Below, one piece after another: positions 40,521-42,791 of a stretch of 64,000 nucleotides of DNA; positions within the stretch are counted from its first letter, which is position 1, and each line of letters opens with the position of its first letter. The notes under the pieces are model-generated. The model saw nothing but the letters and a program-made list of their open reading frames with translations, searched no databases and was not told the DNA's origin. The stretch spans positions 27,094,001 through 27,158,000 of the forward strand of contig CM059426.1 in assembly GCA_030390025.1 (NCBI GenBank). The letters are read 5' to 3'. This DNA is from Squalus acanthias (lineage: Eukaryota). Both the position numbers and the translations under genes were made by a program.

Positions 40521-40644
40521 TTAGGACATGCTTGAGCAACGGACAGAGGGGGACCCCATTTGGGTCAAAACTTTGTCAAGCCACTGTAAGGGTCCATTCA
40601 GGTGGAGTTCAATCCAACAAGGAGTGCTCGTCACAGTCTGCCGT
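40521..40644 (-). CDS. SMAD2: SMAD2 terminal coding exon (human exon 11 equivalent), 124 coding nt including TAA
   Basis: (R)[40 protein letters not shown]. Acceptor ctttctgtcttatag|A. C-terminal SSMS receptor-phosphorylation motif (SMAD3 ends SSVS). Confidence 0.98.
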
Positions 40645-40864
40645 CTATAAAGACAGAAAGAAAAGTTGAAGCAATTAACGCAAAATAATGCAGGTGCAAT
40701 ACCAAATTTTTGGAGTTCATCTAAAATACAATAGTTTTTAAAAATGAATCACTGTGTGAAGAGTGGTGTAGGCTTTGCATAGGAGGGAAAGAGACAATGT
40801 CAAAAAGAAACATTTTTTTCCCAGAATACAAATTGTAACTTTTACCTCAAACAGAAAGTGCAAT

Positions 40865-41290
40865 ACTTGGCTCAATTGGTAGTATTATCATCCGAGTCAG
40901 AAGCTTGTGGGTGCAAGCCCTATGAACTTTATCTAGGCTTACACTTCAGGGATTTCAATATTGAGGGAGTGCTGCATTGTCAGAGGTGTCAGCTTTTGGA
41001 TTAGATATTAAATCCAGGACACCTCTACTTGCTCAGATAGGCATAAAAGATACCCAAGCACTATTCAAGGAAGAGCAGGGGGTTTTCCTGTGCACTGGCC
41101 AACATTCCTCCCTTGACCATCACCACCAAAACAGATTATCTGGTCATTTTTTCATTTGATTTTCCTGGAACCTTGCTGCTTACAAATTGGTTGCTACATT
41201 TACTTATGTAATACAGTGACTGCACTTCAAAAGTAATCCAATGGCTGTAAAGTGCTCTCGGATATACAGTGGATAAATGCATGTTCTTCC
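40865..41290 (+). mobile_element. DeuSINE, diverged
   Basis: tggctcaattggtag head and Deu core. Confidence 0.75.
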
Positions 41291-41769
41291 TCGCTTTAAT
41301 ACTGCCTCAACTGTAAAGCTACTGGCTTGTGGCACCCGACTTTCAGTTTACTTTTAAGACTCATTGCAAGTATGTCTTAAAGGTTAAGAACTGGTGTTCA
41401 TCCCACTTGAGAAACAATGTGTTAATGGCACTCAACTATCCCAAGTCAGCTCATTTGCATGACTAGTCACAGATTGAGGTATAGACCAGGTCAAGTGAAA
41501 TGAGCACATTTGCAGTGGAAACAGAAAATTGTGTGCAAGTGAATTATAAAGAGGTGGGGTCAATTAAAGCAGAGTGTCACAATGGTGGGGGTGGGGGGGC
41601 TTACTGAAAGTTTTTAAGACAAGCCCAAAAGGCATCTCAGCCCATTAGCAGCCTTTGCCAATGCTGAAAGTGCAGTGGCTAAAGAAATGACCGGTAAGAA
41701 AGGGAAACTTGAGGTCACAGCTGACAGGGTCTTTCACTAGCTGTGTCAGCTCTATGGTGCACGTTGACA

Positions 41770-42055
41770 CAGAATTAACAGCACAGAAATAGACCATTCA
41801 GTACAACTGGTGTTTATGCTCCACTCGAGCCTTCTCCCATCCTACTGCATATCCTTCTATCCCTTTCTCCCTTACGTACTTCGATAGCTTTCCCTTAAAG
41901 GTTATCCGCCTCATGCAGTAGTAAGTTCCACATTCTAACCACTCCCTAGGTAAAGAAGTTTCTCCTGAATTCTTTATTTGATTTATTAGTGACTATCTTA
42001 TTAGTGACTATGACCCCTAGTTTTGGACTCCCCCACAAGTGAAAACATCTTCATC
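41770..42055 (-). mobile_element. CR1 3' end fragment
   Basis: cagcacagaaatagaccattcag...aagaagtttctcctgaattc...tgacccctagttttggac. Confidence 0.7.
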
Positions 42056-42207
42056 AAATCCAGGTGGTGTCCTCAAAGCAGATGCACAGTTCTGCATTGG
42101 TCTATTGACCCAGACCTTGTGGAGACACTTTTACAAAGCTGTTGTCAGGTAGGTGCAACAATGCTTTGGCATCTCTGAGGGTGTGGCCAATCAGGCTTTG
42201 CTGGAAC

Positions 42208-42363
42208 CAATGTTCTCTAATTTTTTTTGGTTTGTGATTCCTTTAAGGTGCTGTCCGGTCTAAAATATCGCGCTTGCGCGGTTTTTCCCATTTAAAAGCC
42301 GGTGAGCCGGCTGCACGGGAGCTCCAGAGCGCTGCACGACCGCGCAACTTAAAGGGAACACTG
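42208..42363. mobile_element. hAT-like MITE
   Basis: Imperfect TIRs caatgttctctaa / ttaaagggaacactg; CpG-rich; no clear 8-bp TSD. Confidence 0.5.
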
Positions 42364-42767
42364 GTGAATACCACCCTGGCATGCCGTCTTTCAAGCAGTA
42401 CCACGTAAAACATGACATGCTGTGACTAAAGTGAGTCGAAAGAACGATCCAGCATAACCACTTCATAATCATCTGCGCATCATACCTGCTGCCACAACCT
42501 ACCTTTGAATTGGATTCGCCCCTACTCCATGCAACAATCTTACAAAACAATGACTGGTCACCTCGGTCTTTAGAAGCAAGAATGTAGGTAGCAGCAGGTG
42601 GGTACAAAGCATCTCATGCATCCCATCCTGCCTGCCACCCCTTCTTCCTAGAACCTTATTATAATTCCCCATGGTGGTTGAGAACACAATTTGCTACAAC
42701 GACTCATGAAAAAGTGCCAGGAGTGGGGTGGGGTGGGGATGTGACAGAAATTGCCTCAGAACAGCTG

Positions 42768-42791
42768 CAGTGGCTTGACAAAGTTTTGACC
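42768..42791. repeat. 24-bp perfect inverted copy of SMAD2 last-exon sequence 40563-40586
   Basis: Plus strand cagtggcttgacaaagttttgacc is the exact reverse complement of ggtcaaaactttgtcaagccactg at 40563-40586. Confidence 0.95.

What the first reader, a model, noticed from the sequence alone, without database searches (positions are those of the whole stretch)
40563..42791. SMAD2 last intron carries a perfect 24-nt antisense copy of the final coding exon (candidate long-range pre-mRNA duplex or editing-complementary sequence)
Seen: plus-strand 42768-42791 (cagtggcttgacaaagttttgacc) is identical to the SMAD2 sense sequence encoding Q-W-L-D-K-V-L-T (40586-40563). The minus-strand pre-mRNA therefore contains the exact complement 2.2 kb upstream. 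The flanks show no exon similarity and neither copy is in a recognisable repeat. A rough uniform-base estimate for such a match within 64 kb is about 1e-5. At one end the helix continues through an A:C mismatch, then U-A and U-G pairs. Established: ADARs edit exonic adenosines paired to intronic complementary sequences (GluA2 Q/R type) and favour A:C mismatches; long-range pairing also steers splice-site choice. The paired codons are human SMAD2 Q447-T454, including D450, a known inactivating tumour-mutation site. Inference: the duplex could direct recoding (Q447R, D450G, K451R/E; the A:C site itself is synonymous Leu) or tether the adjacent candidate exon donor to the last exon. A neutral template-switch microinversion is the alternative.
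Basis: partly seen in the sequence, partly recalled or inferred. Interest (0 to 1): 0.85.

Follow-up and report, generated by a model that had tools for sequence, protein, structure and literature searches.

The report
Backwards exon snippet in SMAD2 intron
A 24-base piece of the last SMAD2 exon sits backwards in the intron 2.2 kb upstream, wedged into an old repeat; it is most likely an ordinary DNA-repair scar, and although it is predicted to pair with the exon in the RNA, nothing shows that it edits or regulates the gene.

Summary
The 24-nt exact inverted match (40563-40586 / 42768-42791) is real, occurs only at these two places in the 3.7-Gb genome, and is not an assembly artefact: an independent sample and organism C carry it unchanged, and organism D differs at one base. 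In 24 aligned sister copies the site is about 16 nt shorter and lacks the 24-mer, so the arm is an insertion copied from the exon, with 2-nt microhomology and a small deletion. This fits a repair-mediated duplication ('doublet'). The 'A:C mismatch extension' and the 'candidate donor' are repeat letters. The arm changes at the flank rate (1 observed, 1.3 expected; weak test), shows no compensatory change, and has no counterpart in four SMAD paralogs. The helix is predicted to form (-41.7 kcal/mol), so incidental editing or later use is possible (about 12%), but editing and splicing were not tested. Unchecked notes of this scan report the same kind of scar in other genes, one in this genome.

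The parts
40521..40644 (-). SMAD2 last coding exon (3' splice site to stop codon)
   Evidence: 41/41 identical to PDB SMAD2 C-terminus; acceptor context
40563..40586 (-). Donor arm: codons Q-W-L-D-K-V-L-T, exon nucleotides 59-82
40645..46872 (-). SMAD2 last intron, 6228 nt
   Evidence: donor and acceptor contexts; reading frame continues
41365..42960 (.). Old interspersed repeat copy that hosts the insertion; class not established, ends approximate; interrupted by younger inserts at about 41767-42060 and 42208-42363
42768..42791 (+). Acceptor arm: inverted 24-nt copy of the exon (antisense in the pre-mRNA)
42768..42769 (+). 2-nt microhomology (CA) shared by host repeat and exon at the left junction (inferred)
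   Evidence: the A is shared by 88% and the C by 38% of 24 copies; 8 of 24 copies read TGCA here
42770..42791 (+). Inserted 22 nt absent from sister copies; net gain about 16 nt, so about 6 host nt were lost (inferred)
   Evidence: anchor-to-anchor span 63 nt here, 31-55 (median 47) in 24 copies
42820..42897 (-). Candidate 78-nt cryptic exon inside the repeat; its donor is a repeat feature; in-frame stop after 6 codons; use not shown
   Evidence: donor-like letters in 6 of 24 copies; 2 substitutions against 4.1 expected, P=0.22
46873..47017 (-). SMAD2 penultimate coding exon

Best explanation
The intronic 24-mer is an inverted copy of the nearby SMAD2 exon inserted into an older repeat, most likely left by one germline DNA-break repair or template-switch event and likely neutral since. 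Shown: exact complementarity, uniqueness in the genome, position inside a repeat whose sister copies lack it and are about 16 nt shorter, and presence in organisms A, C and D. Inferred mechanism: a broken end in the repeat annealed by a short microhomology (CA; some copies also carry an AAAGTTT-like word) to the exon 2.2 kb away, copied about 22 nt in inverted orientation, and rejoined with loss of about 6 nt. The event predates the split of A, C and D and is probably much younger than the repeat, which would explain the perfect match. The RNA helix is a predicted by-product.
For: Insertion in a repeat: 63 nt between anchors against a median of 47 in 24 copies; best match of any copy to the 24-mer is 11-14 of 24. 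Acceptor in an interrupted repeat, single donor under 3 kb away, and microhomology plus deletion match the published RD class: 753 of 1,136 donors under 3 kb; 9 of 39 proximal breakpoints MH+Del, MH 2-9 nt, Del 1-15 nt; an exon copied in opposite orientation into an intron of ACSBG2 (PMC2671141). Substitution at flank rate: 1 in 24 against 1.28 expected, P(<=1)=0.64. No antisense stretch above 14 nt, G-U allowed, in 9-12 kb upstream of the last exon of 4 of 4 paralogs. Isolated short local duplicates are a background feature here: 9 within 50-5000 nt (7 direct, 2 inverted) against 4 at 10-50 kb in 1.2 Mb (not vetted one by one). SMAD2 0 hits, GRIA2 52 hits in the searched supplements of a human recoding catalogue.
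Against: The match is still perfect in A and C. If the insertion were as old as the repeat (about 0.2 substitutions per site, my estimate), that has P of about 0.01, so neutrality needs a young age, and no outgroup dated it. D's one change gives a G-U pair, which keeps the helix. Exact doublets of 22 nt or more were absent from 1.2 Mb of control DNA (0 kept of 6,775 raw matches). The helix is predicted to be stable, 24 of 24 pairs in the MFE of 2.4 kb. A rough likelihood ratio favours constraint 6- to 23-fold, under assumptions of my own. The conservation test has low power. The stretch 42809-42882 beside the arm has 0 substitutions (3.9 expected, P=0.02, chosen after the fact). The 2-nt microhomology is short and could be chance.
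Confidence: 0.8

Rival explanations
1. Born as a repair insertion, then kept by selection: the helix acts as an editing-complementary sequence (recoding Q, D, K or T codons of the MH2 tail) or as an RNA bridge that affects last-exon splicing or the adjacent cryptic exon with its early stop.
For: Predicted 24-bp helix, -41.7 kcal/mol, pair probability about 1, opening cost 4-5 kcal/mol per arm. It is the strongest exon-intron duplex among the four SMAD2 exons tested (-46.3 against -32 to -35). Intact in A and C, wobble-compatible change in D. In human genes, conserved duplexes below -30 kcal/mol are enriched for editing sites (PMC8052449 passage). The arm starts 28 nt below a strong-looking donor.
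Against: No compensatory change seen; substitution count at flank rate; no paralog counterpart; extension and donor are repeat letters; SMAD2 not found in the searched human recoding tables. A short perfect helix has no bulge to select one adenosine (recalled ADAR rule). The residues are identical in all SMAD peptides seen, so recoding would more likely harm.
Confidence: 0.12
2. RNA- or cDNA-templated patch: the insert was copied from SMAD2 transcript (nascent or mature) rather than from the chromosome. Also neutral.
For: The insert is wholly exonic. Capture of cDNA at breaks is cited in the introduction of PMC2671141.
Against: A transcript-derived patch need not land 2.2 kb from its gene. There is no poly(A) tail or target-site duplication, and none of 39 proximal duplications had a tail.
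Confidence: 0.05
3. Chance similarity, or stepwise point mutation of repeat letters that already resembled the exon.
For: Some copies have TGCA and AAAGTTT-like words here and match up to 14 of 24 positions.
Against: About 1e-5 per window; needs a separate 16-nt length gain; 0 exact doublets of 22 nt or more in 1.2 Mb.
Confidence: 0.02
4. Assembly artefact.
For: None found.
Against: One contig of X5 (other study, other sample; flagged near-identical) spans 42610-42960 with 0 differences, and single contigs of C and D span it too.
Confidence: 0.005

Closest known systems
Repair-mediated duplications (RDs), Pace et al. 2009, PMC2671141 (read: parts 1-2 of 8 and passages)
   Same: [quoted passage not shown]
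   Different: Insert is 22-24 nt, below their 50-bp cut-off; the empty site is inferred from sister copies, not from an outgroup genome.
Doublets (short paired duplications), Thomas et al. 2004 (not held; known only as described in PMC2671141)
   Same: Short, near-identical, two-copy local duplication.
   Different: One arm is coding; I could not read their definition.
MMBIR templated insertions (MMB-TI), PMC8421209 (passages read)
   Same: Short inverted copy of a nearby template with junction microhomology; occurs as germline variants.
   Different: Their search covers templates within 100 bp; here the template is 2.2 kb away, and microhomology is seen on one side only.
Editing-complementary sequences (GluA2 Q/R type; features recalled) and PCCRs / RNA bridges (PMC8052449, passages read)
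   Same: Exon-intron complementarity able to form a stable long-range helix.
   Different: No deep conservation or covariation shown, perfect rather than bulged helix, origin inside a repeat, no editing or splicing evidence.

Membership tests
Repair-mediated duplication (RD) | Acceptor interrupts an interspersed repeat | tested here: met
   63 nt against median 47 in 24 copies
Repair-mediated duplication (RD) | [quoted passage not shown] | tested here: met
   2 places genome-wide with up to 2 mismatches, 2181 nt apart
Repair-mediated duplication (RD) | Microhomology, deletion or filler at the junction; no poly(A) tail | tested here: met
   2-nt microhomology and about 6-nt loss inferred from sister copies; weak on its own
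Repair-mediated duplication (RD) | Length of 50 bp or more (operational cut-off of the paper) | tested here: not met
Repair-mediated duplication (RD) | Empty orthologous site in an outgroup | tested here: inconclusive
   C and D both carry it; no more distant genome reached
MMB-TI as defined by MMBSearch | Inverted template within 100 bp | tested here: not met
   inverted, but 2181 nt away
Editing-complementary sequence | Stable exon-intron duplex can form | tested here: met
   prediction only: -41.7 kcal/mol, 24 of 24 pairs in the MFE
Editing-complementary sequence | A-to-I editing in the paired exon that depends on the intronic arm | not tested
Editing-complementary sequence / PCCR | Arm conserved above its flanks | tested here: inconclusive
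   1 change against 1.28 expected; low power
Editing-complementary sequence / PCCR | Compensatory substitutions | tested here: inconclusive
   none seen; D's change falls on the Trp codon and gives G-U; the exon arm in C and D was not resolved because one search showed 40 of 220 rows
RNA bridge / splice-regulating duplex | Regulated exon responds to disruption and rescue of the helix | not testable with these tools
   needs a minigene or antisense oligo

The most novel reading that the evidence does not exclude
A single repair accident created a ready-made editing-complementary sequence or RNA bridge in SMAD2. One fish lineage has since kept it to recode the MH2 tail or to switch a repeat-derived early-stop exon, which would be a datable birth of an editing substrate in a core TGF-beta gene.
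Probability: 0.12. Interest if true: 0.7.

Novelty: new member of a known kind. Interest (0 to 1): 0.2.

Why it matters
As a neutral scar it matters little: it is one more short local duplication, and a usable phylogenetic marker. It does offer a cheap natural test of whether a bare 24-bp exon-intron helix across 2.2 kb is enough for ADAR to edit a coding exon. If editing or a splicing effect were found, it would show how editing-complementary sequences can arise in one step from repair duplications.

Tried and rejected
The C13 match to the flank first looked like a conserved SMAD paralog element; it is a sister repeat copy. Paralog covariation: no element in 4 of 4 paralogs. Rfam on 40000-47100: one chance-level hit (E 0.57). 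Metagenome scan for the 24-mer: 0 matches. No RNA holder listed; the probable RNA run X9 laid 0 records on 42610-42960, which is no evidence on expression or on use of the cryptic exon. Organism E (X12) had no cover at either arm. One search listed no difference in the exon arm but showed only 40 of 220 rows, so I draw nothing from it. The + strand frame 42588-42809 that ends in the QWLDKVLT peptide is taken as incidental. The class of the host repeat was not established: no terminal inverted repeat in this copy and no shared long frame. Literature: searches listed no paper on SMAD2 recoding or on shark SMAD2 editing (listings only; 20 of 47, 15 of 152 and 11 of 11 shown). PMC8897444 supplements: 5 files searched, files 4 and 5 not searched, so a SMAD2 site there is not excluded. 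PMC8052449: SMAD2 0 times in the main text, supplements not searched. Thomas et al. 2004 was not held.

Full report
Observation. The two arms, 40563-40586 and 42768-42791, are exact reverse complements 2181 nt apart. The lower arm lies in a minus-strand exon whose 41 residues are identical to the C-terminus of SMAD2 in PDB chains 1u7v and 1khx. The exon runs 40644-40521 and the last intron 46872-40645, so the arm is exon nucleotides 59-82. With up to 2 mismatches the word occurs only at these two places in the 3.7-Gb genome. A composition-aware estimate for any exact 24-nt pair in 64 kb is 1.05e-5. It is no assembly artefact: one contig from another sample and study of the same organism spans 42610-42960 with no difference (the tool flags it as near-identical and possibly the source), and single contigs of organisms C and D span it too.

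The intronic arm is inside a repeat. The flank had one more match in the genome, on C13. That locus is not a SMAD; it aligns with the intron over about 41480-42871 at 59-67% identity, and a search with it returned 49 matches from 40 scored of 978 candidates. Sister copies cover about 41365-42960 of the window, broken by two younger inserts. Of 54 loci tested for the part that holds the arm, 24 passed the score filter and were aligned; 30 were dropped, and two or three of the 24 align poorly. Between fixed anchors the window copy has 63 nt and the others 31-55, median 47. Window letters agree with most copies up to 42769 and again from about 42794, while 42779-42793 is a gap in 83-100% of copies. 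No copy matches the 24-mer at more than 14 of 24 positions. The arm is therefore an insertion of about 22 nt with about 6 host nt lost. The first two letters (CA) are shared by host and exon, and 8 of 24 copies read TGCA there. Some copies also have an AAAGTTT-like word at the site, so the exact breakpoints are uncertain.

The A:C, U-A, U-G extension comes from 42765-42767, which match 50-71% of copies. The neighbouring donor is present in like form in 6 of 24 copies. The candidate exon it would close (42897-42820, 78 nt) lies within the repeat and would bring a stop after 6 codons; its use is not shown.

Conservation. Organisms B, C and D hold the orthologous intron at roughly 95% identity. 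On 42610-42960 the arm is unchanged in C and has one change in D (42773 G>A, one contig, depth 7.5). The 18 listed differing positions give 0.053 per site outside the arm, so 1.28 are expected inside and 1 is seen (P(<=1)=0.64). The D change turns a G-C pair into G-U opposite the Trp codon. It keeps the helix, but about half of transitions would. The exon arm in C and D is unresolved because one search showed 40 of 220 rows. So the insertion predates A, C and D, neutrality is not rejected, and constraint is not excluded. The four paralogs (one SMAD3-like, three SMAD1/5/9-like) have no antisense stretch above 14 nt in 9-12 kb upstream of the last exon.

Background. In six 200-kb blocks (five chosen arbitrarily, one next to the window), 6 of 6,775 raw exact matches of 18 nt or more passed the isolated-and-unique filter outside the window, none of 22 nt or more (the raw count includes the window). 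Allowing mismatches, 9 isolated pairs lay within 50-5000 nt (7 direct, 2 inverted) against 4 at 10-50 kb (75,557 alignments screened; pairs not vetted singly, and some may be ends of rare elements). Short local copies are thus a background process here, and perfect ones are rare. My inference is that a 3.7-Gb genome holds thousands, tens of them with a coding donor.

RNA. The duplex is -41.7 kcal/mol. In a fold of the 2,421-nt pre-mRNA stretch all 24 pairs are in the MFE, most with probability near 1. It is the strongest exon-intron duplex of the four SMAD2 exons tested. This is an equilibrium prediction and follows from any such insertion. Editing was not tested. In the supplements of a human recoding catalogue (PMC8897444; 5 files searched, 2 not) SMAD2 has 0 hits and GRIA2 52.

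Mechanism and known classes. Pace et al. (PMC2671141; parts 1-2 of 8 and passages) define repair-mediated duplications as insertions into interrupted repeats with one donor nearby. Of 1,136 donors, 753 lie under 3 kb away; junctions show microhomology of 2-9 nt and deletions of 1-15 nt; they occur in zebrafish; and an ACSBG2 exon was copied in opposite orientation into an intron of its own gene. This locus meets those features except the 50-bp search cut-off, which puts it among the shorter 'doublets' that the paper cites. MMB-TI insertions (PMC8421209, passages) are the inverted short-range analogue but are defined within 100 bp. As an editing-complementary sequence or PCCR (PMC8052449, passages) it meets only the ability to pair.

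Against my reading. A perfect match after the full age of the repeat would be unlikely (P about 0.01 at 0.2 substitutions per site), so the neutral model needs the insertion to be young, and I had no outgroup to date it. A crude calculation with a uniform age gives a likelihood ratio of 6-23 for constraint, or 5-54% posterior for priors of 1-5%. These inputs are my assumptions. With no covariation, no paralog counterpart and invariant residues, I take the low end, about 12%.

Verdict. A real, lineage-shared, short inverted templated insertion of a known kind; function unshown. Unchecked notes of this scan describe the same pattern in APCDD1 (same genome), SLBP, SEL1L3, MAN2A2 and Dachsous; I reached my reading before seeing them and did not check them.

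Noticed in passing
window 54559-54557 (-), SMAD2 exon 54660-54502: Codon AGC (Ser) where the PDB SMAD2/3 chains shown and this genome's SMAD3-like paralog have Gly (QRY-G-WH). It could be a lineage substitution, a variant, an error, or an A-to-I-restorable codon. No strong complementary sequence within 5 kb (best -30.4 kcal/mol, irregular).
   Followed up: partly
window 47945-48098: Near-perfect hairpin of about 75 bp (two head-to-head repeat copies, -139.9 kcal/mol) in the intron above the penultimate SMAD2 exon; a far stronger candidate ADAR substrate than the 24-mer.
   Followed up: partly
window about 9500-12100 and 20550-23100: Long inverted pair of closely related repeat copies with exact runs up to 99 nt.
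   Followed up: no
window 42809-42882: 74 nt with no substitution in C or D (3.9 expected, P=0.02, chosen after the fact), covering the repeat-derived donor.
   Followed up: partly
L061+L062 (G000:C23 about 56824183-56827720 and 56832469-56835999): At least 3.5 kb of the SMAD3-like gene, with one exon, is present twice at 99.1% identity; the second copy begins right after a 500-nt break in the self-alignment, probably an assembly gap, so likely an assembly duplication.
   Followed up: partly
L046-L059, G000:C6 54.5-57.0 Mb: A dozen or more near-identical copies of the host repeat in one region, suggesting a tandemly amplified cluster.
   Followed up: no
G000:C5 80005735-80006406: Isolated 75-nt inverted pair, 95% identical, 522 nt apart; either the ends of a rare element or another local inverted duplication.
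   Followed up: no
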